DNA of 64,000 nucleotides from Candidatus Nomurabacteria bacterium (GCA_023898465.1 CP060223.1:256001-320000), one strand, 5' to 3'; shown: positions 6,435 through 47,294, counted from the first letter of the stretch. Program-made: numbers and translations. The notes: generated by a model from the letters alone, not told the origin.

Positions 6435-7058
6435 TTAGGAATTTTGAGTTTGGTCAGCCTGCATGGCACTTCTCCCTTTTATCGCATTGGAGAGCGTTAC
6501 CTCGTCAGTGTATTCCAAATCGCTTCCCATTGGTAAGCCACGGGCCAGGCGGGTGACTTTTACATGCAGGGGTTTTAACTGCTGATGAAGATATAAGCCG
6601 GTTGCCTCACCCTCCATATCGGGGTTTGTAGCGATAATAAGTTCCTCGATAGATTCTTTCTGCACTCGATCAAGGAGTTGAGTCACGCGCAGTTGCTCAG
6701 GACCGATGCCGTCAATTGGATTGAGTACGCCGCCTAAAACATGATAGCGTCCCTGATACTCACCAGTACTCTCAATAGCCAGCATGTCAGCGCTGGTTGC
6801 TACTACACAGAGGGTATGCAAATCGCGTTGCGTGTCACGGCAAATGCGACAGGGAGAGGATTCAGTATAGGTTCCACAGATCTCGCAGCTGCGCACCTGC
6901 TCTTTAAGCACGCGCAAACTATCCACCAGATGTTCAATCTGTTCCGGGGGCCGAGTGAGGAGATAGAGCACATAGCGCTCGGCGGTTTTACGACCAACAC
7001 CGGGCAGACGAGCAAAATCCTCGATCAAATCATGAATCGGGGCGGGGAATTGCGTCAT
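6435..7058 (-). CDS. recR: Recombination protein RecR
   Basis: HhH motif LPGVGRKTAERY, C4 zinc finger CEICGTYTESSPCRICRD, Toprim region. Confidence 0.9.
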   Translation of the reverse strand: MTQFPAPIHDLIEDFARLPGVGRKTAERYVLYLLTRPPEQIEHLVDSLRVLKEQVRSCEICGTYTESSPCRICRDTQRDLHTLCVVATSADMLAIESTGEYQGRYHVLGGVLNPIDGIGPEQLRVTQLLDRVQKESIEELIIATNPDMEGEATGLYLHQQLKPLHVKVTRLARGLPMGSDLEYTDEVTLSNAIKGRSAMQADQTQNS

Positions 7059-7067
7059 ACACGTACG

Positions 7068-7364
7068 CTAGCCTAAGCCAGGGATCTGCATGCCTGAGGA
7101 ACGCATTTTCATTGCTACAGCTTTTTGTACTTTTTTTGTAGCCTCAGAAAAAAGTTCCTTGAGAGCCTTTTCCAGTTCATCCTTTTTCTCAGGATTGAGA
7201 AATTCCGGATCAATGGATAGGGAGAGCACTTCTTGATTTCCATCCATGACCAGGGAGATTTTTCCACCCTTTACGTCGTGGTGGATAGTTTCTTGTGCCA
7301 GCATATTTTGCAGCACTTTTGCTTGGTCTCGGAGGTCTTTGATTTGCTTGAGTTTGTTGAACAT
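7068..7364 (-). CDS. ybaB: Nucleoid-associated protein YbaB/EbfC
   Basis: 98 aa; conserved recR-ybaB pairing; MQIPGLG C-terminal motif. Confidence 0.85.
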   Translation of the reverse strand: MFNKLKQIKDLRDQAKVLQNMLAQETIHHDVKGGKISLVMDGNQEVLSLSIDPEFLNPEKKDELEKALKELFSEATKKVQKAVAMKMRSSGMQIPGLG

Positions 7365-7436
7365 AGTATGGGAAGTTTAGCAAAAATACCCAATTCTGTC
7401 ACTCTGAAACAAGTTCAGGGTGACAACTGCTTGTGT

Positions 7437-8786
7437 TTAAAATGGTTCCTGAACTCGGGTTTCGAGGTTTTTGAAACTCACCGTGTTCTCATCGAAGAAC
7501 ATTTGCACGATGCCGGTAGGGCCATTACGGTGCTTGGCAATGTGAATTTCAGCCACATTGCGTCGGTCGGTCTCGGGCTTATAGAGTGCTTCACGATAGA
7601 TAAACATCACCACGTCGGCATCTTGCTCAATAGAACCGGATTCGCGCAGGTCGGCCAGCTTTGGTATCGGAGGAGTGCGGGATTCCACTGCACGAGAAAG
7701 CTGAGAAAGTGCTAAGACCGGCACATCGAGCTCTTTTGCAATACCCTTGAGTCCACGCGTGATTTCCGCAACCTGCTGCACACGGCTCTCTGAATCAACA
7801 CGTCCTTCCATTAACTGGAGGTAGTCGACAACAAGTAAGCCGAGGCCGTGTTCAGTTTTGAGGCGACGGGCCTTGGTGCGCATTTCCATGACCGAGGTCA
7901 CTGCTGAGTCATCGATGAAAATTTGTGCTTCGGATAGCGTACCAATCGCGTGGCCAATGCGAGGGAAGTCATCATCCTGTTCATCAGATGAGAGTTTACC
8001 AGTACGCATTTTCCAAAGGCTAACACCAGCTTCAGCACAGATCATACGATCGACCAATTGCTCCTTGGACATTTCTAAGCTGAAAATGCCAACCGGTTGC
8101 TTGCTCTTAATCGCCACATTACGGGCCAGGTCCATTGCCAGCGAAGTTTTACCAACTGATGGACGGGCAGCTAAAATAATGAGGTCAGAACGTTGTAAGC
8201 CCGCCAGGATATTATCAAGATCAGTGTAGCCAGTTGGTAAACCGCGCAGAGTACCACTTTGCTTATGCAGCTCGTCGATGCGTTCAAAAGCATCTGATAG
8301 GGCGCTTTGCAGACTGATAAACTGCTGGCGCATGTATTTTTGCGAGACCTCGAAGAGTCGCTGTTCAGCTTGGTCCAGCAGAATATCAACCTCGTCGGTT
8401 TCTTTATAGCCCAGCGCATTAATTTCCTGAGAAGCACCAATCAAGCGACGCAGCGTAGCCTTGCGTTGCACAATATTGGAATGATGCACGATATTTGAGG
8501 CAGTTGCTACGGCGTTAGAAAGTTCCGCCAAATAACTACGTCCGCCAATCATCTCGAGCTGTTTTCGCTCATTCAGGCGATTGGTGAGCGAGAGGATGTC
8601 GATAGGCTCCTGCTTGGCATAGAGCTCCAACATAGCCTCAAAAATCATTCGATGCGTGTCCTTATAAAAGTCCTCTGGCCGCAGCTGGTCCGCAATCTTA
8701 ATAATGGCGTCTTTATCTATAAGTAGACTGCCAAGAGTGGCCTGCTCTGCTTCGATATTCTGGGGTGGGATGATTTCCTGTGGCAT
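7437..8786 (-). CDS. dnaB: Replicative DNA helicase DnaB
   Basis: 449 aa; Walker A ARPSVGKTSLAMD, Walker B LLVVDYLQLM, N-terminal DnaB domain. Confidence 0.92.
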   Translation of the reverse strand: MPQEIIPPQNIEAEQATLGSLLIDKDAIIKIADQLRPEDFYKDTHRMIFEAMLELYAKQEPIDILSLTNRLNERKQLEMIGGRSYLAELSNAVATASNIVHHSNIVQRKATLRRLIGASQEINALGYKETDEVDILLDQAEQRLFEVSQKYMRQQFISLQSALSDAFERIDELHKQSGTLRGLPTGYTDLDNILAGLQRSDLIILAARPSVGKTSLAMDLARNVAIKSKQPVGIFSLEMSKEQLVDRMICAEAGVSLWKMRTGKLSSDEQDDDFPRIGHAIGTLSEAQIFIDDSAVTSVMEMRTKARRLKTEHGLGLLVVDYLQLMEGRVDSESRVQQVAEITRGLKGIAKELDVPVLALSQLSRAVESRTPPIPKLADLRESGSIEQDADVVMFIYREALYKPETDRRNVAEIHIAKHRNGPTGIVQMFFDENTVSFKNLETRVQEPF

Positions 8787-8884
8787 AGGCGTGGGTTGAT
8801 TGTAGGCTGAGCCGGCGGCAAAGGCAAGTCAGCGCTCCACAGCTTTTTCCCCATAATTTTCCCCTGTTTCTCCTGCTTGAAAAG

Positions 8885-37927: not shown

Positions 37928-38467
37928 ATGTCACGTAGCGTACTCATTTTCATCGTACTCCTCGTTATCCTCGCAGTAGGCGGTGGAATTGTTTGGTGGA
38001 TGGTCACCAACCCAAGCGAAAATAGCAACACAAATAATGCCGTTGTCGCGAATACCAACACTGAGGTGAATGCAAATGCTGCACCGAATATTGATGTACA
38101 GGCCGGTGCGGTGGATGTAGGACGAGAAGCCTTGCTGACCAGTGCGAACTTCCGCGCCAGCTCAGCTTCATTGCTCAGCGAATTTGACGGCCTAAGCGCC
38201 GCTGAAGATAAAAGCTACCTGGTTGTCTATTACATGTTGACGCCTTACGAAGGATCAAGCGAAAACGTGCCAAATCTGAACGATCAAAACGTTTCAGTCA
38301 GCAGCGGTGACACTTCCTATACACTGCAAGCAATTGGCACCACCCAGAGCGAAACTGATGGCGAAGAACTTGGCTATCTGCGTTTCGAAGTGCCTGTTGA
38401 CGCAAGCGGATTTGTCCTAACGATTTTAGACGGCGACATAGAGCAGACGATTGATCTGGGCTTTTAA
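37928..38467 (+). CDS. Hypothetical secreted/membrane-anchored protein
   Basis: Strong RBS AGGAGGA; N-terminal TM; Asn/Thr-rich linker; no family recognised. Confidence 0.5.
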   Translation: MSRSVLIFIVLLVILAVGGGIVWWMVTNPSENSNTNNAVVANTNTEVNANAAPNIDVQAGAVDVGREALLTSANFRASSASLLSEFDGLSAAEDKSYLVVYYMLTPYEGSSENVPNLNDQNVSVSSGDTSYTLQAIGTTQSETDGEELGYLRFEVPVDASGFVLTILDGDIEQTIDLGF

Positions 38468-38520
38468 CCTATTGAGTGCCGGGTGAGTAACGGGGGATTG
38501 GCATTAGCGCAGGAGATGGC

Positions 38521-39633
38521 ATGAAGATTGGCATAGTTACGCAGAGCTTTTTCCCCATTCGCGGAGGTGTCGCAGAACACGTCTATCATACAGCGCATGC
38601 TTTAGAGCGGCGCGGACACGAGGTCGTTATTATTACGGCCAATTTTAGTCGTTTTGATGAGGATAGGGGATGTCGGGTCGAGCGCATCGGCCGCGATTTA
38701 ACCATTCCCTTTAATCAGGCTTTTGTAAACCTGACCATTAGCTGGAATATCCCGCAGGAGTTACGCCACCTAGAGCGCAAGTACGGCTTCGACGTGGTGC
38801 ATATTCACGGACCCTACGAACCATTTTTACCTGCCCTGGCGCTGAAGAATATCGAGTGCCCAAAGGTTGGCACTTTTCATGCCTTTAACGCGCATCCCTC
38901 GTTGGGCTATCGCGTGTTTGAAAATTACATCCGAACCTTTAAGGATCGTTTGTCAGCCCGCATCGCGGTTTCGCAAGCCGCTAAGGACTTTATCTCGCAT
39001 CATTTCCCGGATGATTATGAAATCATCCCAAACGGCGTGGATGTGCAGCGCTTTAGTCCGCAGGTCAAACCCTTCCCTTGGTATAACCCAGAGAAATTCA
39101 CCATCCTCTTTGTCGGTCGTATGGATCCGCGCAAAGGTTTGAAATATCTCTTACGCGCCTTCACCATGATCGCGTCCGAGTTCCCGCAGGCCGAGGTGGT
39201 GGTTGTCGGCAATGGTATATTGCGTCGCTATTACGAAACCTTTTTAGAGCCGAGCCTGAAAGATCGCGTGCGTTTCGAGGGCTTTGTCTCGGCTGCAGAT
39301 TTACCGCGCTACTATGCCTCCAGCGATGTGTATGTGTCGCCAGCCACCGGCAATGAGAGTTTCGGCATTGTCTTGCTCGAGGGTATGGCCAGCGGCAAGC
39401 CGGTGATTGCGTCGGATATTGACGGGTATCGGGATGTGATTCGCCATGGCCAGGATGGGATTTTGGTGCCAAAATCTGACCCAGCCGCCCTAGCCCAGGC
39501 TCTCCGCACCCTGGCCCGTGACCCGCAAGAAAGAGCAAAATACCAGCAGGCCGGCCGTCAGCGGGCTGAGGAATTCTCCTGGGAGTCTATTACTGACCGC
39601 TTGGAGGAGGTGTATAGGAGGGTGGTGTATTGA
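38521..39633 (+). CDS. Glycosyltransferase family 4 (GT-B, retaining)
   Basis: C-terminal E-x7-E region FGIVLLEGMASGKPVIASDIDGYRDVI; N-terminal GGV motif. Confidence 0.85.
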   Translation: MKIGIVTQSFFPIRGGVAEHVYHTAHALERRGHEVVIITANFSRFDEDRGCRVERIGRDLTIPFNQAFVNLTISWNIPQELRHLERKYGFDVVHIHGPYEPFLPALALKNIECPKVGTFHAFNAHPSLGYRVFENYIRTFKDRLSARIAVSQAAKDFISHHFPDDYEIIPNGVDVQRFSPQVKPFPWYNPEKFTILFVGRMDPRKGLKYLLRAFTMIASEFPQAEVVVVGNGILRRYYETFLEPSLKDRVRFEGFVSAADLPRYYASSDVYVSPATGNESFGIVLLEGMASGKPVIASDIDGYRDVIRHGQDGILVPKSDPAALAQALRTLARDPQERAKYQQAGRQRAEEFSWESITDRLEEVYRRVVY

Positions 39634-39666
39634 ACGTAGCAATGGAAGAATTATTAAAGTAAAAGA

Positions 39667-42600
39667 ATGGACTCTGCCCCATTAACACTACAAACGAAGA
39701 CACTGCAGAGGTCTTCCGATCTAAATAATTACAGACTCTATCGCGCAGCTCTTGAATGGGAGTTGATTGATCCTATTGTCATAGAAGACCGGGATGACAT
39801 GCATTCCGAAAGTAGTTGGCGTGATCGTCTTGAGCCGTATCATCATCAAGTAACTAACCTAATAACTTTTTGTCGTCGCCTACCTGTTACTTTACTGGCG
39901 GATGATGTCGGGTTAGGAAAAACAATTAGTGCTGGCCTAGTTTTAAGCGAGTTAATTTCGCGCGGGAGAATTTCAAAAATATTAATAGTTTGCCCAAAAA
40001 TACTTCGAGATCAGTGGAAAGAAGAATTGGAAATAAAGTTCCGAATTCCGTCCACAATTGTGACAGGAAGAGAATTAATTACGGCAAAGCCTCCTGAAGA
40101 ACCAGGAGCGGTAATTACCACATACAATACGGCCAGACTGTATTTAGATAGAATTGACCAGAATGGTTTTGAAATATTGATACTTGATGAGGCGCATAAA
40201 TTGCGGAATCTATATGGTGTTGACCCAACACCTCAAGTTGCAATTAAATTCCGTAAAGCTCTGGCTGACCGGATGTTTAAGTACGTATTAATGTTAACTG
40301 CAACGCCGATCCAGAACAGACTATGGGATCTCTACTCGTTGGTTGACTTATTAACCGTTGCACGCGGCCATGAAAATCCCTTTGGAACGCCAGGTATTTT
40401 TGCGAGAAAATTTATTGCAGATAGTCGCACACAAGCGCGTCAGCTTAATCCGGAGATGCGGGATGAGTTTCGCTCAATTATTTACGGTTATATGTCTCGG
40501 GTTCGTCGTGGAGATGCAAAACTCCACTTCCCAGAGCGGGTAGTACAGTTGCATAAAGTTGACCCAACACCAGAAGAATTGCAGTTGATCGGTGTGGTCG
40601 GAAAATCTATACAACAACTGAATGCGCTTACACAAATTGTAATCCTCCAAGCTTTGGTGAGTAGTCCAGAAGCGCTAATAAAGATGTTAGAAGGAATGGC
40701 TAAAAAAGGAACCGTACCGCGTGAGGTGTTGGCGAACGTTAAGGAATCAGCCAAAGAAATTCAAATCACTACAAAACTAAAAGGTTTGGGCGCGTTAGTT
40801 GAAAAACTTAGAAAGGAGCAACCCAATACTTGGCGGGTGGTAGTTTTTACAAGATGGCGAGAAACTCAAACAACTATCGAAACTTTTCTTGAAAAGCAAG
40901 GAGTAAAATGCGGCTTGATAAATGGCGATTCAAGTAAGCGAAATCAGGAAACAATCCAAAGATTTAAAAAAGACTTACCAGACATTAATGTAATTATTTC
41001 TACTGAAGCAGGTTCGGAGGGCGTTAACCTTCAGGCCGCTAATGTTTTGGTTAATTACGATCTCCCCTGGAATCCAATGATAGTGGAACAAAGAATAGGT
41101 CGTATTCAAAGACTTGCTTCTAATTATGCAAATGTTTCTATTTTTAATATTGTTTTGCAAAATACCTTTGAAGAATATATTGTAGGGCGCTTGATGGAAA
41201 AGTTGCAGATGGCTTCTCATGCAATTGGGGATATTGAAGCACTATTGGAAGCATCCGGCATTGATGAAGGTGAAGAAAATGGCTCAAGTGGTTTTGAAGA
41301 AAAAATTCGCCAGTTAGTAGTTGCATCTTTAGCTGGAAAAGATGTTGAGCAGGCAACTCGTAAAGCTGAACAGAGTATTTCAGAAGCTAAAACAGAATTA
41401 GACCATGAAGAAAAGAACATTAATGCTTTACTTGGGGGGATGAGTGATTCTCTAGATTCTGGTCCAAGATGTCCGAAGCTTCCTCAAACTACTAAGTCGA
41501 TGGATGTCCGTGATTTTACTACGGCTGCTCTTATGAGCTTAGGCGCGGAACTACATCCAAAAAAGGATGGTTTATTAGTTTCACAACTTGCTGGGAAAAA
41601 AGAATTAATCCGATTTGATAATAACACTCTGAGCAGTGAAGAGGAGAGTGTCTTATATGCACCGGGAACTTCAACTTTTGAACGCTTAGTCCATAAAGTT
41701 GCAAATGTAGGAAAACACATTGTTGAAGACCTTGATAAAAACCCCCAACAGCAAATTGAGAAAGTAAGTCGTCAATGGGTCGAAAGTTTTGGCGGAGACT
41801 TCGAAAATGTAACGGTAGAGGACGTTTCTCGATGTTTTGCAGGAGTAGCAATAATTCGTGCAAGATCAACAGTAGCTCACGATAGTTATGAGCGTCTCAT
41901 TGAGGTTTCGTGCGCTCCCACTGAGCATTTCAGTTTTGTGACAAGAACGGGATTGGAACCCATCGGAGACTATATTGAAAATCCGACATCTGTTGGTGCG
42001 CTTTCAGAAAAATTAATTGAAAAAGCCAGCCAAGACTCGAGTATTCTTGAGTTCTGTAGATTTTATTTAGAACGAAGATCTCAAGAAATTGCCTCCGCAG
42101 GAAATGACGAAAGAAAAAAGAAAAAGCTTGAGGATGAGTTTACGCCCCGTCTTGAATTTTCCCTAGTCGGTCTTGAGGGCAAGGTTCATCGGATAGTTAA
42201 AAATCAGGTCTCTTATAGAATTGAACGTGAGGGCCAATACAAAAGTACCCTCATGATAACCCCCTCTTCTGGGCAAGTTGATATGCCGGGGATGGGACAA
42301 TGCATGAAAACAGGTAAGACTGTACCGAGCGATTGCTTAGCAAAGTGCGAAATAAGCGGACTTATAGTATTGCGGCATTTTCTTGATCAATCAGAGATCA
42401 GTAATCGACTGGCGCTCCCTGAGCACATCGTTTTATGTACGTTAAGCAACAAGCGAGTGCTAGCGGACGAAGCTATAAAATCAGATGTTACGGGCAAACT
42501 AGTCGCAAAGAAGTTTTTAAAAACATCTTCTCTGAGTGGCAAATTCGCTGAACCACAGTTCATTAACACTTGTGAGTTTACAAAAACAGAAGTTCTGGAA

Positions 42601-43194
42601 AGCGAAATTGCGGTCAGCCAGATTTCAGGAAAAAGATATCGCATTGATGAGCAACTTAAATCCGCAGTTTCAGGAAAACTAGGCCATCGACAAGAATTTG
42701 TAGCAAGTAGTATTTCATCAGCCCCACTTCTTGAAGAAGAAGCCATTCGTTCGGTCACTGGAAAATTTTGTGCACCAATGGAAGCGAGGCCCTGCACTTG
42801 GAGTGGTCGAAAGTGTCACCCCGAAGACCTTAGGACTTGCGAGTTGACCGGAGTCCAAATTCATTCAGAGTACGTAACGCTCGAACCACCAATTCGTTTA
42901 GAAACCCTAAATAATCTTTTGAATGGCACGAGGAGCAAATCTGACAAATTGGAAGTATGGCCTTCACTTTCAAATAGCGTTACAGCTTTATTAAAAGCAA
43001 AACGTTGTAAAATTGAAACAGCAGAAGTTTCACCTAGTGACGATATTTTGGCCGCTTCTATAGAGCTTCGAACTTTTCTAGGCCTGCGCGTGAGTCACAT
43101 TGGCGTACTTTATTCAATAAAGGATGGATCCGTAGTCGGGCGTGTTGCTAGAGGCAAGCGTGGTGATAAGGGCTGGAATCAAACTAAGAACTAA
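39667..43194 (+). CDS. SNF2-family helicase with about 600-aa repeat-containing C-terminal extension
   Basis: Motif I DDVGLGKTISAG, motif II LILDEAHKLRN, motif III LTATPIQNRLWDL, motif VI QRIGRIQR. C-terminal half has no known domain but contains about 8 short S/T-G-K repeats. Confidence 0.85.
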   Translation: MDSAPLTLQTKTLQRSSDLNNYRLYRAALEWELIDPIVIEDRDDMHSESSWRDRLEPYHHQVTNLITFCRRLPVTLLADDVGLGKTISAGLVLSELISRGRISKILIVCPKILRDQWKEELEIKFRIPSTIVTGRELITAKPPEEPGAVITTYNTARLYLDRIDQNGFEILILDEAHKLRNLYGVDPTPQVAIKFRKALADRMFKYVLMLTATPIQNRLWDLYSLVDLLTVARGHENPFGTPGIFARKFIADSRTQARQLNPEMRDEFRSIIYGYMSRVRRGDAKLHFPERVVQLHKVDPTPEELQLIGVVGKSIQQLNALTQIVILQALVSSPEALIKMLEGMAKKGTVPREVLANVKESAKEIQITTKLKGLGALVEKLRKEQPNTWRVVVFTRWRETQTTIETFLEKQGVKCGLINGDSSKRNQETIQRFKKDLPDINVIISTEAGSEGVNLQAANVLVNYDLPWNPMIVEQRIGRIQRLASNYANVSIFNIVLQNTFEEYIVGRLMEKLQMASHAIGDIEALLEASGIDEGEENGSSGFEEKIRQLVVASLAGKDVEQATRKAEQSISEAKTELDHEEKNINALLGGMSDSLDSGPRCPKLPQTTKSMDVRDFTTAALMSLGAELHPKKDGLLVSQLAGKKELIRFDNNTLSSEEESVLYAPGTSTFERLVHKVANVGKHIVEDLDKNPQQQIEKVSRQWVESFGGDFENVTVEDVSRCFAGVAIIRARSTVAHDSYERLIEVSCAPTEHFSFVTRTGLEPIGDYIENPTSVGALSEKLIEKASQDSSILEFCRFYLERRSQEIASAGNDERKKKKLEDEFTPRLEFSLVGLEGKVHRIVKNQVSYRIEREGQYKSTLMITPSSGQVDMPGMGQCMKTGKTVPSDCLAKCEISGLIVLRHFLDQSEISNRLALPEHIVLCTLSNKRVLADEAIKSDVTGKLVAKKFLKTSSLSGKFAEPQFINTCEFTKTEVLESEIAVSQISGKRYRIDEQLKSAVSGKLGHRQEFVASSISSAPLLEEEAIRSVTGKFCAPMEARPCTWSGRKCHPEDLRTCELTGVQIHSEYVTLEPPIRLETLNNLLNGTRSKSDKLEVWPSLSNSVTALLKAKRCKIETAEVSPSDDILAASIELRTFLGLRVSHIGVLYSIKDGSVVGRVARGKRGDKGWNQTKN

Positions 43195-43195
43195 T

Positions 43196-44686
43196 ATGAA
43201 CCCTCTACTTACAAAAACCGATTATCTTCTTTACCGGGAATGCCCAAAGAATGTTTGGTATAAAATCCAAAAACCTGAATTGTATGCTACATCGGAGCTA
43301 ACAGAGTTTGAAAAATCGATAATGGAAACAGGTAATGAGGTTGAAAAGATTGCAAGGCAACTTTTTCCAAACGGGGTGTTAGTAACTTATCGTGATGCGC
43401 GCGGTCAAGCTGAGACACAAAAGCTATTGGCGGAGAACAAGGATGTGATTTTTCAGCCAGTTTTTGTCAAAAATAACTTTTTGGCTGCTATTGATGTTCT
43501 ACAAAAAGAAAAGAATGGCAAGGGCTACAATGTTTACGAAATAAAATCGACTAGTGATGTAGATAAGAAAACACATTTTCACGACCTAGCATTTCAAGTA
43601 AACGTTCTCAGAATGACAGGCCTGGGAATTAATAAATCATTTGTCATTCATCTAAACTCTGAATATATTCGAAAGGGAGAAATTGAGCTGGATCAGTTAT
43701 TTAAAGTATCAGATGTGACGGATGAAGTAGAAAGTCTTTTACCGGATGTTGCGACTGAGGCGGAAGAAGCATTGAAGTATATTAGCCAAACTTCTGAACC
43801 AGAGGGGTACTGCTGCTGTATTTATAAAGGTCGATCAAGGCATTGTTCAACCTTTCAGCTAGCGAACCCCGAAGTACCCGAATATAGTGTCCACGATATT
43901 TCTAGGATAGGGGTAAGCAAGGCTAAATTAAAAGAGCTAATTGACGGAAGTATTTTTCACCTGGACAAGATTCCGCCACACATTAAATTAAGCGAAATTC
44001 AACAAGGTCAAGTTGAAACCTATAAATTGAATAAGGTATTAGTAGATAAGGAAAGAATTGCGGAAGAATTTAGTGGTCTCACATTCCCACTTTATTTTCT
44101 TGATTATGAAACATTTCCATCAGCAATACCAAGATATGATGGCTTTTCACCATATAAACAAATTCCGTTCCAGTATTCTGTTTACAAACTAGATTCAGTC
44201 GAGAGTGAGCCAACTCATTTTGATTTTTTGTACTCTGGTCCCGAAGACCCCAGCAAGCACTTTGCCGAGTCTTTAAGGGAACATATCGGGGATAAAGGCT
44301 CGATCATCGTTTGGCATAAAGACTTCGAGTGTGGCAGAAATAATGAAATAGGTAGTCGAATTCCTACTTCGAAGGCTTTTTTTGACTCTGTTAATCAGCG
44401 AGTATACGATCTCGAAGACATTTTCAAGAAACAATACCACGTTCATCGAGATTATAAGGGAAGCACATCTATTAAAAACGTATTGCCTGTTTTAGTGCCA
44501 GAATTAACGTATAAAGACCTTGAAATTCGTGATGGTGGCAGTGCAGCGGATAGTTGGGACAAAATAATTAGTGGTGTATATAACGAGACAGAGAAAGAAA
44601 AGGTAATAAAAGATTTAAAGATTTATTGTGGTCTTGATACATTTGCAATGTATGCTATTTGGAATTGCTTGAACAAGCTACTCTAA
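43196..44686 (+). CDS. Cas4/RecB-like PD-(D/E)xK nuclease domain protein with probable Fe-S cluster, plus a C-terminal domain of unknown function
   Basis: N-terminal Cys (YRECPKNVWY); motif II IDVL; motif III YEIKS; Cys cluster EGYCCCIYKGRSRHC. Start taken at MNPLLTK (ATG 43196), overlapping the SNF2 stop region. Confidence 0.6.
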   Translation: MNPLLTKTDYLLYRECPKNVWYKIQKPELYATSELTEFEKSIMETGNEVEKIARQLFPNGVLVTYRDARGQAETQKLLAENKDVIFQPVFVKNNFLAAIDVLQKEKNGKGYNVYEIKSTSDVDKKTHFHDLAFQVNVLRMTGLGINKSFVIHLNSEYIRKGEIELDQLFKVSDVTDEVESLLPDVATEAEEALKYISQTSEPEGYCCCIYKGRSRHCSTFQLANPEVPEYSVHDISRIGVSKAKLKELIDGSIFHLDKIPPHIKLSEIQQGQVETYKLNKVLVDKERIAEEFSGLTFPLYFLDYETFPSAIPRYDGFSPYKQIPFQYSVYKLDSVESEPTHFDFLYSGPEDPSKHFAESLREHIGDKGSIIVWHKDFECGRNNEIGSRIPTSKAFFDSVNQRVYDLEDIFKKQYHVHRDYKGSTSIKNVLPVLVPELTYKDLEIRDGGSAADSWDKIISGVYNETEKEKVIKDLKIYCGLDTFAMYAIWNCLNKLL

Positions 44687-44690
44687 ACCT

Positions 44691-45392
44691 ATGAGCTTTC
44701 TTAAGATTTTTAGTGATGATTCTAAAGACAAGCCAAAAGAAAATGATAGTCGGAAACCTGAATGTCCATACTGTCAGGGCGTTTTAGTTAAAATTCCTGC
44801 TAGAAAAACAAAATGTTTTCACTGTGGGAAATATATTTTTGTACGAACACAGACAAAGGACAGAAAGCTCGTTTTGGTTACTGAAGAAAATTCGGCCGCG
44901 ATAGACTCTGAATGGGAGTCAAAACAAGCCGCTACGATCACTTCATTGGTGGAGAAAGTAGATTTTACAAAGAAAAAAGAAGGTCTGCGCGAAGGGTTTG
45001 GGGACAAGGAACCCTCCGTTAGTGACATAAAGTGGGGCTTGTGGAACAAGAGGCTTCAGGAAGCAATGAAACGCAATGATTTTTCAGAACTTTCAGGAAT
45101 ATATTTTCAAATGGCTCTGCGCTTGCACGAAAGTGGAAAAGACAGCTTTAAACTTCAGGGCCAGGCTCAAAAAATGTTTTTGTTTAAAGAAAAGCAAAGC
45201 GGTGTTGTTTCTAGCGTAGAGGTTTTTTCTAGAGATGGCTGTGAAGAATGTAAGAAAATAAACGGAAAGAAATTTGTTATTTTTGAAGCACTAAAACTCA
45301 TGCCACTACCCGTTCAATCCTGCACAAACAAACTGAATAAGAATGCGCCCAATGGTTGGTGTCGATGCACTTTTCTTCCTTTTATAGATTAA
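44691..45392 (+). CDS. Zn-ribbon-containing hypothetical protein
   Basis: CPYCQG...CFHCGK N-terminal C4 ribbon; C-terminal Cys pairs (CEEC; CRC); 4-nt gap after the nuclease gene. Confidence 0.5.
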   Translation: MSFLKIFSDDSKDKPKENDSRKPECPYCQGVLVKIPARKTKCFHCGKYIFVRTQTKDRKLVLVTEENSAAIDSEWESKQAATITSLVEKVDFTKKKEGLREGFGDKEPSVSDIKWGLWNKRLQEAMKRNDFSELSGIYFQMALRLHESGKDSFKLQGQAQKMFLFKEKQSGVVSSVEVFSRDGCEECKKINGKKFVIFEALKLMPLPVQSCTNKLNKNAPNGWCRCTFLPFID

Positions 45393-45547
45393 GACTTTGC
45401 CACCAATACTTTTGTTTCGGTCGCTGAGCATCCACCCTTTTTATCCCCCTCTGCCGATCTTCTAAAAAGAAACGGGAATTTAATCACGTAAAAAATAAAG
45501 AGGACCCATTATAACCCCTTGCCTCCGTCATTCGCGAACGACGGGGT

Positions 45548-45576
45548 TGACAGGGCTTTTTTGTTATACTATTCTT
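45548..45576 (+). promoter_or_regulatory. Sigma70-like promoter of hrcA operon
   Basis: TTGACA, 17-nt spacer, TATTCT, immediately upstream of CIRCE. Confidence 0.6.
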
Positions 45577-45579
45577 GTT

Positions 45580-45606
45580 TTAGCACTCAAATATTGAGAG
45601 TGCTAA
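45580..45606 (+). promoter_or_regulatory. CIRCE operator (HrcA binding site)
   Basis: Perfect TTAGCACTC-N9-GAGTGCTAA inverted repeat 10 nt upstream of the hrcA start. Confidence 0.9.
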
Positions 45607-45615
45607 TTCAAGCCC

Positions 45616-46341
45616 ATGAAGCTCTCAGAACGACAACAACACATATTACAGGCCGTGATTCAAGAACACCTGGTGCAGGGGAAGCCGGTTGGTTCGCAGC
45701 AACTGGTGACGGCCGGTGGATTCGACGTGTCGAGCGCGACTATGCGCAATGAAATGGCTGAATTAGAGGAAAAGGGCTTTTTAACGCATCCCCACACCTC
45801 AGCCGGTCGGATTCCGACGGAGCAGGGTTGGCGCTACTACCTCGACCATATCATTGAAAAAAAAGAGCTAAGTAAAAAGGAAGAAAGCTATCTGCAGCAG
45901 CAAGTGAAAAGCAGCGAGCCAGCTGGTCCGCAAAAAGTGAAAACCTTAGCCAAAGCACTGGCTGAGCTGTCAGAAGAAGCCATCATGATCGGTTTCGCGC
46001 CAAATGATGTGTACTACACCGGCTTGCGTAACCTTTTCTCTAAACCGGAATTCCAGGATTTTGCCGTGGTGACGCAGTTGTCTGAAGTGATTGACCATTT
46101 GGACGAGGCCTTGTCTCGCTTATTTCTACGAAAAGAAAAGTCCCAGCAGGATGTAACAGTATTAGTGGGACAGGAGCATCCTTTTGGCGCTGACTGCAGT
46201 GTCATTATGACGCAGATTCCGGTGGCCAAGGGGAATGCGACCGGTATACTCGGTATCCTGGGCCCGATGCGGCAGCAATATGCAGACAACATTGCTCGAT
46301 TAGATTATTCTCGTCATTTACTTACTGAATTATTTTCCTAA
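45616..46341 (+). CDS. hrcA: Heat-inducible transcription repressor HrcA (short form, 241 aa)
   Basis: N-terminal winged helix ILQAVIQEHLVQGKPVGSQQL...SSATMRNEMAELEEKGFL; preceded by CIRCE and followed by grpE. Confidence 0.85.
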   Translation: MKLSERQQHILQAVIQEHLVQGKPVGSQQLVTAGGFDVSSATMRNEMAELEEKGFLTHPHTSAGRIPTEQGWRYYLDHIIEKKELSKKEESYLQQQVKSSEPAGPQKVKTLAKALAELSEEAIMIGFAPNDVYYTGLRNLFSKPEFQDFAVVTQLSEVIDHLDEALSRLFLRKEKSQQDVTVLVGQEHPFGADCSVIMTQIPVAKGNATGILGILGPMRQQYADNIARLDYSRHLLTELFS

Positions 46342-46344
46342 AGC

Positions 46345-46848
46345 ATGAGCACGAACGAAAACGAAGTCCAAGAAGACACTTCACCTGAAATGAGCACCCT
46401 GCAAAAGAAGGCGGAAGAGTACCTAGCCGGCTGGCAGCGCGCCAAGGCAGACTATCAAAACCTGAAGCGTCAGAATGAAAAAGAGCGCGAAGAGCTCATG
46501 AGTATGACCACTGGTGCGCTCATCCTCGACCTCCTGCCCGTGAAAACCAACTTTGACCTAGCCTGGCAACATCTGCCAGAGGATCTGAAAGACCACGCCT
46601 GGGTAAAGGGCATGGAACACGTGCAAAAGCAGTTTACCGAATTTTTACAAACCCTGGGTATTAGTTCCTATCAACCATCACATGAAGCCTTTGACCCCAG
46701 TAGCATGGAAGCGATCGAGCACACGGCTGACGCAGAAGTGCCCGAGGGTCAGGTGATCCGCACCACTGAGCCAGGCTATCGGATGCGCGACAAAGTCATC
46801 CGTCCGGCCAAAGTGGTGGTCAGCTCAGGTCCTAGTCAAGAATCGTAA
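46345..46848 (+). CDS. grpE: Nucleotide exchange factor GrpE
   Basis: Coiled-coil N-terminus (YQNLKRQNEKEREEL) and C-terminal beta domain; canonical position. Confidence 0.85.
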   Translation: MSTNENEVQEDTSPEMSTLQKKAEEYLAGWQRAKADYQNLKRQNEKEREELMSMTTGALILDLLPVKTNFDLAWQHLPEDLKDHAWVKGMEHVQKQFTEFLQTLGISSYQPSHEAFDPSSMEAIEHTADAEVPEGQVIRTTEPGYRMRDKVIRPAKVVVSSGPSQES

Positions 46849-46883
46849 TCTTCTCTCAACATTAACCCTTAAGGAGAAACACT

Positions 46884-47294
46884 ATGGCAATTATCAAATG
46901 GAGTCCTTTTGCAGACATGCTTGGCGAAGATTTCTTCGAAGACATGCCGCTGGCTCGTAATTATCGCTTTGTCCCGGCCCTCGACATTTATGAGGATAAG
47001 GACAACATCGTAGTAGAAACCCCACTCTCGGGCATTGATCCAAACAAAGTAAATATTGAGATCGAGGACAACATCCTCAAAATCTCTGGATCAACCGAAA
47101 AGAAATCCGAAGTGGATGAAAAAAACTACTACCGCAAAGAAGTCCGCAGTGGACAATTCTTCCGCTCGGTTGCCCTGCCAAAAGCAGTGGATGCAGATAA
47201 GGCTGATGCGCAATATCACGACGGTATCCTGAAAATCACCGTGCCAAAGCGCGAAGAAGCCAAGCCAAAGACTATTTCCGTTCAAGTAAAGTAA
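46884..47294 (+). CDS. Hsp20/alpha-crystallin family small heat-shock protein
   Basis: ACD core (PALDIYEDKDNIVVETPLSGIDPNKVNIEIEDNILKISG...AQYHDGILKITVPK). Confidence 0.88.
   Translation: MAIIKWSPFADMLGEDFFEDMPLARNYRFVPALDIYEDKDNIVVETPLSGIDPNKVNIEIEDNILKISGSTEKKSEVDEKNYYRKEVRSGQFFRSVALPKAVDADKADAQYHDGILKITVPKREEAKPKTISVQVK

What the first reader, a model, noticed from the sequence alone, without database searches (positions are those of the whole stretch)
39667..45392. Candidate undescribed defence cassette: SNF2 helicase with novel C-terminal half + Cas4-like Fe-S PD-(D/E)xK nuclease + Zn-ribbon protein
Three same-strand, tightly packed genes (stop/start overlap, 4-nt gap) form a 5.7-kb low-GC (about 38%) block between a GT4 glycosyltransferase (about 55% GC) and hrcA. 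Gene 1 has all SNF2 ATPase motifs in its first about 570 aa, then about 600 aa with no recognisable domain. Gene 2 has the N-terminal Cys, PD-(D/E)xK core (IDVL; YEIKS) and a C-terminal Cys cluster (CCC-x8-C), as in Cas4/AddB-type Fe-S nucleases. Gene 3 has an N-terminal C4 zinc ribbon. Helicase + nuclease + small partner in a compositionally foreign block is the hallmark of phage-defence systems. It resembles SNF2-containing systems such as DISARM DrmD in spirit but lacks methyltransferase and PLD partners, and does not match DISARM, BREX, Hachiman or Gabija layouts as far as can be judged by eye.
Basis: partly seen in the sequence, partly recalled or inferred. Interest (0 to 1): 0.85.

Follow-up and report, generated by a model that had tools for sequence, protein, structure and literature searches.

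The report
Inserted helicase plus double-nuclease cassette
A 5.8-kb foreign DNA block in a tiny uncultured bacterium carries a motor protein with an unknown, repeat-rich tail, a two-headed DNA-chewing enzyme and a small zinc-binding protein; the first two travel together in many unrelated bacteria and look like an undescribed anti-virus module, though no experiment has tested this.

Summary
Three tightly packed + strand genes (39667-43194, 43196-44686, 44691-45392) form a 38-42% GC block inserted between a GT4 glycosyltransferase and hrcA. A related Patescibacteria genome has the same synteny without the block.

- Gene 1 is an intact SNF2 ATPase. Its conserved 600-aa C-terminal domain (CTD) has no Pfam, PADLOC, NCBIfam or PDB counterpart and includes thirteen 15-residue repeats.
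- Gene 3 has an N-terminal zinc ribbon, a helical middle and a Cys-rich C-terminus. It belongs to a large unnamed family.

In 80 loci from diverse phyla that carry the CTD, a Cas4+DEDD nuclease lies next to the SNF2-CTD gene in about 40% (odds ratio 33, p = 3e-15). Two different nuclease families fill this position, in both gene orders, and one locus has a single fused ORF. Gene 3 is only an occasional partner, and gene 2 + gene 3 also move as a unit without gene 1.

DUF2779 genes also sit directly beside Gabija, GmrSD, an R-M system and a Hhe-like gene. No named system matches.

Verdict: a real, uncharacterised helicase-nuclease pair, probably defensive, with a facultative third gene. The defensive function is inferred, not shown.

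The parts
39634..45448 (+). Inserted low-GC block. The left edge is right after the GT4 stop codon. The right edge lies between 45448 and about 45540.
   Evidence: GC is 0.38-0.42 against 0.49-0.53 in the flanks. The syntenic empty site in L174 has GT4 followed by 263 nt and then hrcA. Homology to L006 continues to 45448. No flanking direct repeats and no integrase were found.
39667..41388 (+). Gene 1, residues 1-574: SNF2-family ATPase/translocase core.
   Evidence: Pfam SNF2-rel_dom (E = 3.4e-26) and Helicase_C (E = 4e-21). Motifs I, II, III and VI are intact. The best NCBIfam hit is DrmD at 215 bits against a cut-off of 610.
41389..43194 (+). Gene 1, residues 575-1175: conserved C-terminal domain (CTD) with no known family.
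42298..42882 (+). Array of thirteen 15-residue beta-hairpin repeats, motif (C/S)xx(S/T)G(K), at gene 1 residues ~878-1072. Other family members carry about four more units.
   Evidence: BLOSUM autocorrelation peaks at 15, 30 and 45 residues, and motif positions are spaced by 15. The AF2 secondary structure shows the same period. The window copy has a 60-residue gap in alignment A1.
43196..43885 (+). Gene 2 N-terminal half: Cas4-like PD-(D/E)xK nuclease with a 4-Cys (Fe-S type) signature.
   Evidence: C16, D100, E115, K117 and C217 are invariant; C206 and C208 are nearly invariant. PADLOC Cas4 E = 4.8e-7. HHpred assignments for the family are published in PMC13621843.
44078..44686 (+). Gene 2 C-terminal half: DUF2779, an RNase H-like DEDDy 3'-5' exonuclease domain.
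   Evidence: Pfam PF11074 E = 8.6e-36 at residues 318-443 of the GTG-start ORF. D303, E305, D405, Y477 and D481 are invariant. The family is classified in the 3'-5' exonuclease clade in PMC3985635.
44691..45392 (+). Gene 3: N-terminal C4 zinc ribbon, TPR-like helical middle, and a C-terminal CxxC...C...CRC domain. Facultative partner.
45396..45448 (+). Non-coding stretch downstream of gene 3 that is conserved with L006. It travels with the gene 2 + gene 3 block.
   Evidence: blastn: 85% identity over 53 nt, up to the end of the L006 contig.

Best explanation
The block is a horizontally acquired helicase-nuclease module, most likely used against invading DNA.

Proposed working:
- Gene 1 uses its SNF2 ATPase to load on and translocate along double-stranded DNA.
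- Its 600-residue C-terminal domain acts as the target-recognition, regulatory or docking part. This domain has two or three helix-on-sheet subdomains plus a Cys-rich array of 15-residue hairpins.
- Gene 2 is the effector. It combines a Cas4-type Fe-S PD-(D/E)xK nuclease, which threads single strands from an end, with a DEDDy 3'-5' exonuclease. Together they can degrade both strands of DNA presented by the motor.
- Gene 3 is an optional adaptor or sensor that associates with the nuclease rather than with the helicase.

Shown here:
- The domain content and the conservation of catalytic residues.
- The insertion.
- The recurrent adjacency of helicase and nuclease, including one fusion.
- The defence-island neighbourhoods of the nuclease family.

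Inferred:
- That the proteins form a complex.
- The substrate and polarity of cleavage.
- Any self/non-self discrimination.
- The role of the CTD and of gene 3.
- The anti-phage or anti-plasmid outcome.
For: 1. Insertion: a related genome has the same synteny without the block, and the block has low GC.

2. Pairing: among 80 SNF2-CTD loci from Patescibacteria, Nitrospirota, Acidobacteriota, Bradyrhizobium, Rhodopseudomonas, Planctomycetes and others, a Cas4+DEDD nuclease occupies 28 of 292 gene slots within two genes. Farther away it occupies 3 of 934 (odds ratio 33, p = 3e-15). About 32-34 loci qualify in total once tblastn-only cases are included.

3. Two non-orthologous nuclease families fill this position, upstream or downstream: DUF2779 and RNase_H_2/PDDEXK_1.

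4. L028 encodes PDDEXK + RNase_H_2 + SNF2 + Helicase_C + CTD in a single 1758-aa ORF.

5. The catalytic residues of both nuclease domains and the ATPase motifs are intact.

6. DUF2779 genes lie within a few bases of known defence genes:
- GmrSD (L095, L096).
- GajA + GajB (L104).
- A Type III Res protein plus a PIF1 helicase (L097).
- An AAA+ and subtilase pair (L094).
- A PDC-S37/Hhe-like gene (L133).

7. SNF2-CTD neighbourhoods often contain serine recombinases or integrases. The serine recombinase family F1 occurs in 15 loci, and 9 of 146 scanned neighbours are recombinases or integrases.

8. The family is rare and patchy, in 131 of 185,579 species genomes, yet it is 40-66% identical across phyla.

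9. Precedents from the literature:
- Cas4-family ACE1 is an accessory nuclease that needs single-stranded ends (PMC12094033).
- A DrmD-like SNF2 helicase is an essential add-on to IetAS (PMC13069673).
Against: - No experiment exists for any of the three families.
- About 60% of SNF2-CTD genes have no nuclease next to them, and their neighbourhoods are often ordinary metabolic genes.
- The window itself has no other defence gene, integrase or methyltransferase nearby.
- A DUF2779 member is quasi-essential in the minimal Mycoplasma JCVI-syn3.0, which suggests a housekeeping DNA-processing role for at least part of the family (PMC13621843).
- No means of discriminating self from non-self is visible.
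- The fusion is a single case in one metagenome-assembled genome and could be an assembly artefact.
- Gene 3 relatives below 45% identity show no conserved partner.
Confidence: 0.55

Rival explanations
1. DNA repair or recombination end-processing module. The SNF2 motor remodels or exposes damaged or stalled DNA, and the Cas4+DEDDy enzyme resects ends of both polarities. This would substitute for RecBCD/AddAB or act like MrfAB, in lineages with reduced repair gene sets.
For: - DUF2779 member MMSYN1_0389 is quasi-essential in JCVI-syn3.0, and its DEDD half best matches the repair exonuclease MrfB (PMC13621843).
- Cas4 folds are homologous to the AddB/RecB nuclease domains.
- RmuC and SbcD-like genes occur beside some SNF2-CTD genes.
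- Many SNF2-CTD genes sit among housekeeping genes.
Against: - The family is present in only 131 of 185,579 species genomes, with a patchy distribution across phyla.
- In this lineage it was acquired by insertion as a low-GC block.
- The nuclease family is tightly linked to Gabija, GmrSD, R-M and Hhe-like genes.
- Recombinases and integrases are frequent neighbours.
Confidence: 0.2
2. Cargo that serves a mobile element rather than the host. Possible roles are processing of the element's own DNA, competition with other elements, or anti-defence. Gene 3 would be a phage-derived MuF-like DNA- or portal-binding protein.
For: - DUF2779 and gene 3 relatives occur on contigs that IMG/VR classes as viral.
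- Gene 3 sits next to an Ltp superinfection-exclusion lipoprotein and a serine recombinase in L002.
- Gene 3 has weak MuF-like signals.
- A terminase and recombinases occur near some loci.
Against: - The SNF2-CTD was not found on any of 2.9 million viral contigs.
- The window block carries no recombinase, replication gene or structural gene.
- Viral-contig DUF2779 genes sit among host-type defence genes, which is typical of prophage defence cargo.
Confidence: 0.12
3. The genes are not one unit. Gene 1 works alone, as most of its family does. Gene 2 is an independent stand-alone nuclease that tends to land in variable regions. Gene 3 is an unrelated passenger.
For: - About 60% of SNF2-CTD genes are solitary.
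- DUF2779 appears beside many unrelated systems.
- Most gene 3 relatives have no conserved neighbour.
Against: - The odds ratio for adjacency is 33.
- Two analogous nuclease families converge on the same partner.
- Spacers of 1-10 nt or overlaps are found in many loci.
- L028 is a fusion.
- Gene 1 and gene 2 have diverged in parallel in L007 and L009 (66% and 68-69% identity).
Confidence: 0.1

Closest known systems
Hachiman (HamA nuclease + HamB helicase) and other two-gene helicase-nuclease defence systems such as Gabija
   Same: A two-gene logic: an SF1/SF2 NTP-driven DNA motor encoded next to a PD-(D/E)xK-type or other DNase, carried in variable regions. This resemblance is from my own knowledge of these systems.
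   Different: - The motor here is SNF2-type with a unique 600-aa CTD.
- The nuclease is a Cas4 (4-Cys) + DEDDy fusion, not DUF1837 or OLD.
- No HamA/HamB or GajA/GajB models match.
- The function is untested.
DrmD (DISARM), BrxH (BREX), DpdE, ZorD and ietH: the defence-associated bacterial SNF2 helicases
   Same: These give the best HMM similarity of the gene 1 ATPase core. ietH shows that a DrmD-like SNF2 can be a modular, essential add-on to a defence system (PMC13069673).
   Different: - Scores are far below the family cut-offs: 215 against 610 for DrmD, 171 against 500 for DpdE, and 73 against 1500 for ZorD.
- None of the obligatory partners (DrmABC/MTase, PglX/PglZ, ZorABC, DpdA-K) is in the window.
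- The CTD is absent from all PADLOC models.
DUF2779 / PF11074 family, e.g. MMSYN1_0389 of JCVI-syn3.0 (RNase H-like superfamily family F.17)
   Same: Gene 2 is a member (E = 8.6e-36). It has the same Cas4-like N-terminal half and DEDD(y) C-terminal half as described in PMC13621843 and PMC3985635.
   Different: - Gene 2 keeps all four Cas4-type cysteines, whereas the Mycoplasma protein has only two.
- It lies in an inserted cassette next to an SNF2 helicase, not at a quasi-essential housekeeping locus.
COG2251 / TM0106-type proteins (PDDEXK + RNase_H_2, often fused to an SF1 AAA_11/AAA_12 helicase)
   Same: The same dual-nuclease architecture. It is found next to SNF2-CTD genes in about 15 loci and fused to the SNF2-CTD in L028.
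   Different: - It is a different sequence family from gene 2 (Pfam PF13482, not PF11074).
- In L023, L075 and L068 it carries its own SF1 helicase.
Cas4 of CRISPR adaptation and ACE1 of cyanobacterial pAgo systems
   Same: A PD-(D/E)xK core with a 4-Cys Fe-S cluster. ACE1 is an accessory that boosts another immune effector and requires single-stranded DNA ends (PMC12094033).
   Different: - There are no cas genes, CRISPR array or Argonaute in the window.
- Gene 2 has an extra DEDDy exonuclease domain.
- Similarity to Cas4 models is weak (E = 4.8e-7).
AddAB / RecBCD / AdnAB and MrfAB
   Same: A motor plus nucleases that attack DNA ends. The Cas4 fold is homologous to the AddB/RecB nuclease domains, and the DEDD half resembles MrfB.
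   Different: - The SNF2 motor is not known to unwind DNA.
- Neither gene 1 nor gene 2 has sequence similarity to UvrD-type motors.
- The taxonomic distribution is patchy and driven by horizontal transfer.

Membership tests
SNF2 family ATPase (Pfam PF00176 + PF00271) | SNF2-related N-lobe and Helicase_C lobe above the gathering scores, with motifs I, II, III and VI | tested here: met
   92.5 bits against a cut-off of 24.9, and 75.8 against 23.5. GLGKT82, DEAH174, TATP211 and QRIGR475 are present.
DISARM (DrmD) | DrmD equivalog score at or above the NCBIfam cut-off | tested here: not met
   NF038317 scores 215.5 bits against a cut-off of 610. NF038318 scores 184.3 against 950.
DISARM (DrmD) | Co-located DrmA/DrmB (DUF1998 helicase pair) with DrmC (PLD) and/or a methyltransferase | tested here: not met
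   The neighbours are GAPDH, a 179-aa ORF, GT4, HrcA, GrpE, HSP20 and DnaK.
BREX (BrxHI/BrxHII) | PglX methyltransferase, PglZ phosphatase and BrxC ATPase in the same locus | tested here: not met
   None is present in the block or its flanks. The PADLOC BrxH hit covers only the helicase core, residues 353-643.
Zorya (ZorD) | ZorD equivalog score at or above the cut-off, with ZorA/ZorB/ZorC adjacent | tested here: not met
   NF041790 scores 72.9 bits against a cut-off of 1500. There are no ZorABC genes.
Dpd (DpdE) | DpdE equivalog score at or above the cut-off, within a dpdA-K cluster | tested here: not met
   NF041062 scores 171 bits against a cut-off of 500. There is no dpd cluster.
Hachiman / Gabija | HamA (DUF1837) + HamB, or GajA (ATPase + OLD TOPRIM) + GajB (UvrD) | tested here: not met
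   Genes 2 and 3 have no PADLOC hit except a weak Cas4 hit. The 25 best of gene 1's 57 PADLOC hits shown are all SNF2-type or helicase-core models, and none is HamB or GajB.
DUF2779 (PF11074), Cas4+DEDD dual nuclease | PF11074 above the gathering score | tested here: met
   123.4 bits against a cut-off of 23.3.
DUF2779 (PF11074), Cas4+DEDD dual nuclease | Conserved D...ExK triad in the N-terminal half and DEDD(y/h) residues in the C-terminal half | tested here: met
   D100, E115, K117, D303, E305, D405, Y477 and D481 are invariant in 18 sequences.
CRISPR-associated Cas4 | Cas4 model match and four Fe-S cysteines | tested here: inconclusive
   PADLOC Cas4 E = 4.8e-7, 28 bits, partial. Pfam Cas_Cas4 was not reported for gene 2. 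Four conserved Cys residues are present. Fe-S binding cannot be tested with these tools.
CRISPR-associated Cas4 | Location in a cas operon with cas1/cas2 and a CRISPR array | tested here: not met
   None of the flanking genes scanned against Pfam is a cas gene. No repeat array was found in 38000-47000.
Phage Mu F / SPP1 gp7 head-morphogenesis domain (gene 3 C-terminus) | PF04233 above the gathering score, or a significant fold match | tested here: inconclusive
   4 of 9 family members give sub-threshold hits, best E = 0.0056. BFVD Foldseek best E = 4e-3 with TM about 0.2, although many 'head morphogenesis/minor capsid' targets appear among the top hits.
Functional anti-phage defence system | Protection against phage or plasmid on heterologous or native expression | not testable with these tools
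   Only genomic context is available.

The most novel reading that the evidence does not exclude
The Cas4+DEDDy dual nucleases (DUF2779 and its RNase_H_2-type analogue) may be a general plug-in effector or 'clean-up' module. Many different immune motors and sensors would recruit it: SNF2-CTD, SF1 helicases, Gabija, GmrSD, IetAS-like pairs, R-M systems and Hhe-like proteins. Its job would be to destroy or process invader DNA from its ends, standing in for RecBCD/AddAB in lineages that lack them. The SNF2-CTD protein would be a new kind of DNA sensor-motor. Its Cys-rich array of 15-residue hairpins would read a DNA feature or a phage protein and hand the DNA to the nuclease.
Probability: 0.2. 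Interest if true: 0.8.

Novelty: new variant of a known kind. Interest (0 to 1): 0.6.

Why it matters
If confirmed, this would add a helicase-nuclease immune module with three unusual features: an unexplored protein domain, a double exonuclease effector, and a presence in candidate-phyla-radiation bacteria, whose defences are poorly known.

It would also give a first functional context for two sizeable unnamed protein families, DUF2779 and the gene 3 family. DUF2779 includes a quasi-essential gene of the minimal synthetic cell.

The nuclease sits next to at least six different kinds of defence genes. This raises a testable idea: some nucleases may be shared accessories of many immune systems, much as ACE1 is for Argonautes.

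Cultured carriers (Bradyrhizobium, Rhodopseudomonas, Bosea) make experiments feasible.

Tried and rejected
- PDB sequence searches with profiles of the CTD (A1) and of DUF2779 (A2) gave nothing useful. There was one pentapeptide-repeat hit at E = 0.03.
- The AFDB Foldseek library was not available.
It was rerun with A4.
- The viral-contig scan for the CTD found nothing.
- I tested whether the L004 SF1 helicase shares the gene 1 CTD. It does not.
- The search for att-like direct repeats or inverted repeats bounding the block found only short chance matches.
- The promoter and terminator scan found no more sites than in shuffled sequence, and no promoter in the 33-nt gap between GT4 and gene 1.
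- One literature search (TM0106/COG2251/RNase_H_2) was swamped by human RNASEH2 papers. Searches for DUF2779/PF11074 and for Cas4-like + SNF2 found no paper naming such a system.
- PHROGs gave only helicase-core hits for gene 1 and nothing meaningful for genes 2 and 3.
- The locus from Gracilibacteria (L050) could not be interpreted with translation table 11 because the ORFs are fragmented.
- Membership in DISARM, BREX, Zorya, Dpd, Hachiman, Gabija or a CRISPR adaptation module was considered and rejected (see the membership table).

Full report
**1. What is in the window**

Three + strand ORFs occupy 39667-43194 (gene 1, 1175 aa), 43142/43196-44686 (gene 2) and 44691-45392 (gene 3, 233 aa).

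The gene 1 stop codon (TAA, 43192-43194) is followed by one base and then ATG at 43196. All homologues of gene 2 align from this ATG, so it is the likely start. Gene 2 and gene 3 are separated by 4 nt.

GC content is 0.416, 0.376 and 0.387 for genes 1-3. It is 0.53 for the upstream GT4 glycosyltransferase, 0.49 for hrcA and 0.465 for the whole window.

The exact gene 3 protein is on record from a Candidatus Nomurabacteria metagenome-assembled genome (locus tag H6760_01435, 1.08-Mb contig).

**2. The block is an insertion**

The flanking genes are housekeeping: GAPDH, a 61-aa ORF, a 179-aa ORF and GT4 upstream, then hrcA, grpE, HSP20, a 118-aa ORF and dnaK downstream.

A related Patescibacteria genome (L174, GCA_043800725.1) has the same order: TIM, GAPDH, 60 aa, 172 aa, GT4 (63% identical), hrcA, grpE, HSP20, 116 aa, dnaK. 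There, only 263 nt separate GT4 from hrcA. The hrcA promoter and CIRCE region align between the two genomes, but the sequence just downstream of gene 3 does not.

The cassette therefore entered right after the GT4 stop codon. Its right edge lies between 45448 and about 45540. No integrase, tRNA-type target or bounding repeat was found.

**3. Gene 1**

Residues 75-307 and 381-483 match SNF2-rel_dom and Helicase_C. ATPase motifs I, II, III and VI are intact.

PADLOC and NCBIfam rank DrmD, BrxH, HmaA, DpdE and ZorD models first. The matches cover only the helicase core and lie far below the curated cut-offs, for example DrmD at 215 bits against 610.

Residues 575-1175 match nothing in Pfam, NCBIfam, PADLOC or the PDB sequence set. 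They are nevertheless a well-conserved domain:
- More than 244 proteins share 40-66% identity over the full 600 residues.
- A 24-sequence alignment has 57% mean column identity and many invariant cysteines.

The hairpin run is a 15-residue repeat with motif (C/S)xx(S/T)G(K). The window protein has thirteen units at residues ~878-1072. Autocorrelation peaks at 15, 30 and 45 residues. Other family members have about four more units.

It defines a family rather than an orphan sequence.

**4. Gene 2**

Pfam assigns residues 318-443 (GTG-start numbering) to DUF2779 (E = 8.6e-36).

This family has been described in silico. Majorek et al. placed it in the 3'-5' exonuclease clade of the RNase H-like superfamily and noted a fused DUF83/PD-(D/E)xK part (PMC3985635). 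A 2026 analysis of JCVI-syn3.0 described MMSYN1_0389 as a Cas4-like domain plus a DEDD(y) domain, both probably active, in a quasi-essential gene (PMC13621843).

In an alignment of 18 relatives, the following residues are conserved (numbering from ATG 43196):
- D100, E115 and K117, the PD-(D/E)xK triad, are invariant.
- C16 and C217 are invariant, and C206 and C208 are nearly so. This is the Cas4-type 4-Cys set.
- D303, E305, D405, Y477 and D481, the DEDDy set, are invariant.

**5. Gene 3**

The N-terminal CxxC...CxxC motif is invariant. A second cluster, CxxC...C...CRC, closes the protein.

The word-indexed search found 7 relatives. A full profile search found 2,453 cluster representatives at E ≤ 1e-3 and 1,495 at E ≤ 1e-10, mostly 210-260 aa long. 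Gene 3 therefore belongs to a large unnamed family.

Similarity to the Phage_Mu_F head-morphogenesis domain is weak. Four of nine members hit it, with best E = 0.0056. Head-morphogenesis and minor-capsid proteins are enriched among non-significant BFVD matches. I treat this as a lead only.

**6. Do the genes travel together?**

*Gene 1 with a nuclease: yes.* A scan of one genome per species found the CTD in 131 of 185,579 species. The 80 loci kept come from Patescibacteria, Nitrospirota, Acidobacteriota, Bradyrhizobium, Rhodopseudomonas, Bosea, Planctomycetes, Verrucomicrobiota, Gammaproteobacteria and others.

- A DUF2779 gene lies immediately downstream of the SNF2-CTD gene in L007, L009, L012, L018, L043, L060, L065 and L078.
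- It lies immediately upstream in L034, L062, L066, L074, L077, L079 and L085.
- It is divergent in L061.
- In about 15 further loci the neighbour belongs to a different family with the same architecture, PDDEXK_1/Cas_Cas4 + RNase_H_2.
- In L023, L075 and L068 that nuclease is itself fused to an SF1 helicase.
- In L028 the nuclease and the SNF2-CTD form a single 1758-aa ORF.

Nuclease genes fill 28 of 292 gene slots within two genes of the SNF2-CTD gene, against 3 of 934 slots farther away (odds ratio 33, p = 3e-15).

No other neighbour is conserved. Among 146 neighbours, the commonest families are serine recombinases (6), DUF2130 (4) and tyrosine integrases (3). About 60% of SNF2-CTD genes have no nuclease beside them.

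*Gene 3: only sometimes.*
- In L004 a relative lies between an SF1 helicase and a DUF2779 gene.
- In L002/L003 a relative lies next to an Ltp lipoprotein and a serine recombinase, with no nuclease.
- In L031, L044 and L071 a relative lies beside an SNF2-CTD gene and an RNase_H_2-type nuclease.
- Among 69 loci with more distant relatives, only L121 and L133 have a DUF2779 gene nearby. The other neighbours are not conserved.

*The cassette is a mosaic at the DNA level.*
- Window positions 43206-45394 (gene 2 + gene 3) are 86% identical to L006, and homology continues for 53 nt past gene 3.
- Window positions 39739-44662 (gene 1 + gene 2) are about 69% identical to L007 and L009, which lack gene 3.

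**7. Context of the nuclease family**

On contigs that IMG/VR classes as viral, DUF2779 genes lie within a few bases of:
- GmrSD (L095, L096).
- GajA + GajB (L104, confirmed with PADLOC).
- A Type III Res protein plus a PIF1 helicase (L097).
- An SNF2 helicase without the CTD (L098).
- An AAA+ and subtilase pair (L094).

In L133 the neighbour is a full-length PDC-S37/Hhe-like protein. In L006 it is a 'Helicase_II' R-M protein with a Dcm methylase.

The SNF2-CTD itself was not found on viral contigs.

**8. Most likely working, and its limits**

The evidence fits a helicase-nuclease module acquired by horizontal transfer. An SNF2 translocase engages DNA. Its CTD recognises a target, regulates the motor or docks a partner. 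The Cas4 + DEDDy enzyme then degrades strands of both polarities. Gene 3 is a facultative adaptor tied more to the nuclease than to the motor.

Published work gives precedents:
- The Cas4-family enzyme ACE1 threads single-stranded ends and boosts Argonaute immunity (PMC12094033).
- A DrmD-like SNF2 helicase is an essential add-on to IetAS (PMC13069673).

The following are inferred, not shown: complex formation, substrate, how self DNA is spared, and the protective outcome.

The main rival is a repair or end-processing role. It is supported by the quasi-essential Mycoplasma homologue and the MrfB-like exonuclease half. It is weakened by the rarity of the family, its patchy distribution, the insertion and the defence-island contexts.

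**9. Comparison and novelty**

The cassette works like the two-gene helicase-nuclease systems (Hachiman, Gabija). Its motor is closest to the defence-associated SNF2 clade (DrmD, BrxH, DpdE, ZorD, ietH). It fails the membership tests for all of these systems. No paper in the searchable library names such a pairing.

I rate it a new variant of a known kind. The parts that are new are the CTD fold with its 15-residue repeats, the SNF2-CTD + Cas4/DEDD pairing, and the link between the nuclease and the gene 3 family.

Interest is moderate to high (0.6). The module is a solid candidate that can be tested in cultured carriers, but it is one of many uncharacterised helicase-nuclease pairs and has no functional data.

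Noticed in passing
window 45547-45606: The native hrcA control region is intact just downstream of the insertion. A sigma-70-like promoter (TTGACA, 17 nt, TATTCT) lies at 45547-45575. A perfect CIRCE operator (TTAGCACTC, 9 nt, GAGTGCTAA) lies at 45580-45606 and is conserved in L173 and L174.
   Followed up: partly
L028:6707-11980 (Pyrinomonadaceae MAG, DATNBH010000024.1): A single 1758-aa ORF fuses PDDEXK_1 + RNase_H_2 nuclease domains to the SNF2 core and the CTD. This is a Rosetta-stone-type fusion of the two partner genes. There is only one instance and it has not been checked against reads.
   Followed up: partly
L104:3798-9500 (also L107, judged by ORF sizes only); L095:952-4154; L096:5832-9470; L094:7995-13254: DUF2779 genes sit directly after GajA + GajB (Gabija), directly after GmrSD, and directly before an AAA+ and subtilase (IetAS-like) pair, on contigs that IMG/VR classes as viral. 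This suggests the nuclease is a shared accessory of several defence systems.
   Followed up: partly
window 44691-45392 and proteins P0128-P0275: Gene 3 belongs to an unnamed family with 2,453 cluster representatives (E ≤ 1e-3) in 1.84 billion. Most members are 210-260 aa and stand alone among small phage-like or mobile-element-like ORFs. Some members are longer, up to 832 aa, which suggests fusions that were not examined.
   Followed up: partly
window 42700-42760 (gene 1 around residue 1010-1030) against alignment A1 columns 552-611: The window SNF2-CTD protein lacks about 60 residues (four 15-residue repeat units) that all the other aligned family members have. The closest relatives by locus size (L007-L009, 1172-1175 aa) probably lack them too.
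   Followed up: no
window 45396-45448 and L006:5936-5988: A 53-nt non-coding stretch after gene 3 is 85% identical between two otherwise different loci. It may be a terminator or the end of the unit that moves gene 2 + gene 3.
   Followed up: no
L050 (Candidatus Gracilibacteria MAG): The SNF2-CTD gene appears shattered into short ORFs under translation table 11. This is as expected for the alternative genetic code (UGA read as a sense codon) of that lineage. The locus was left out of the counts.
   Followed up: no
L002:9275-10717: A gene 3 relative lies directly after a lipoprotein with three Ltp repeats (a phage superinfection-exclusion family) and an HTH gene, and next to a serine recombinase. 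L002 also has an uncalled 2.2-kb gap at 6678-8881 that was not examined.
   Followed up: no
proteins P0016, P0068, P0069: Several database gene calls for CTD homologues on long contigs start at an internal Met inside helicase motif VI (MIVEQRIGR...). The six-frame ORFs in the genome loci are mostly full length (~1230 aa), though L024, the locus on P0016's contig, has a truncated 843-aa ORF. Some copies (L015, L037, L063, L067) do look split and may be pseudogenes.
   Followed up: partly
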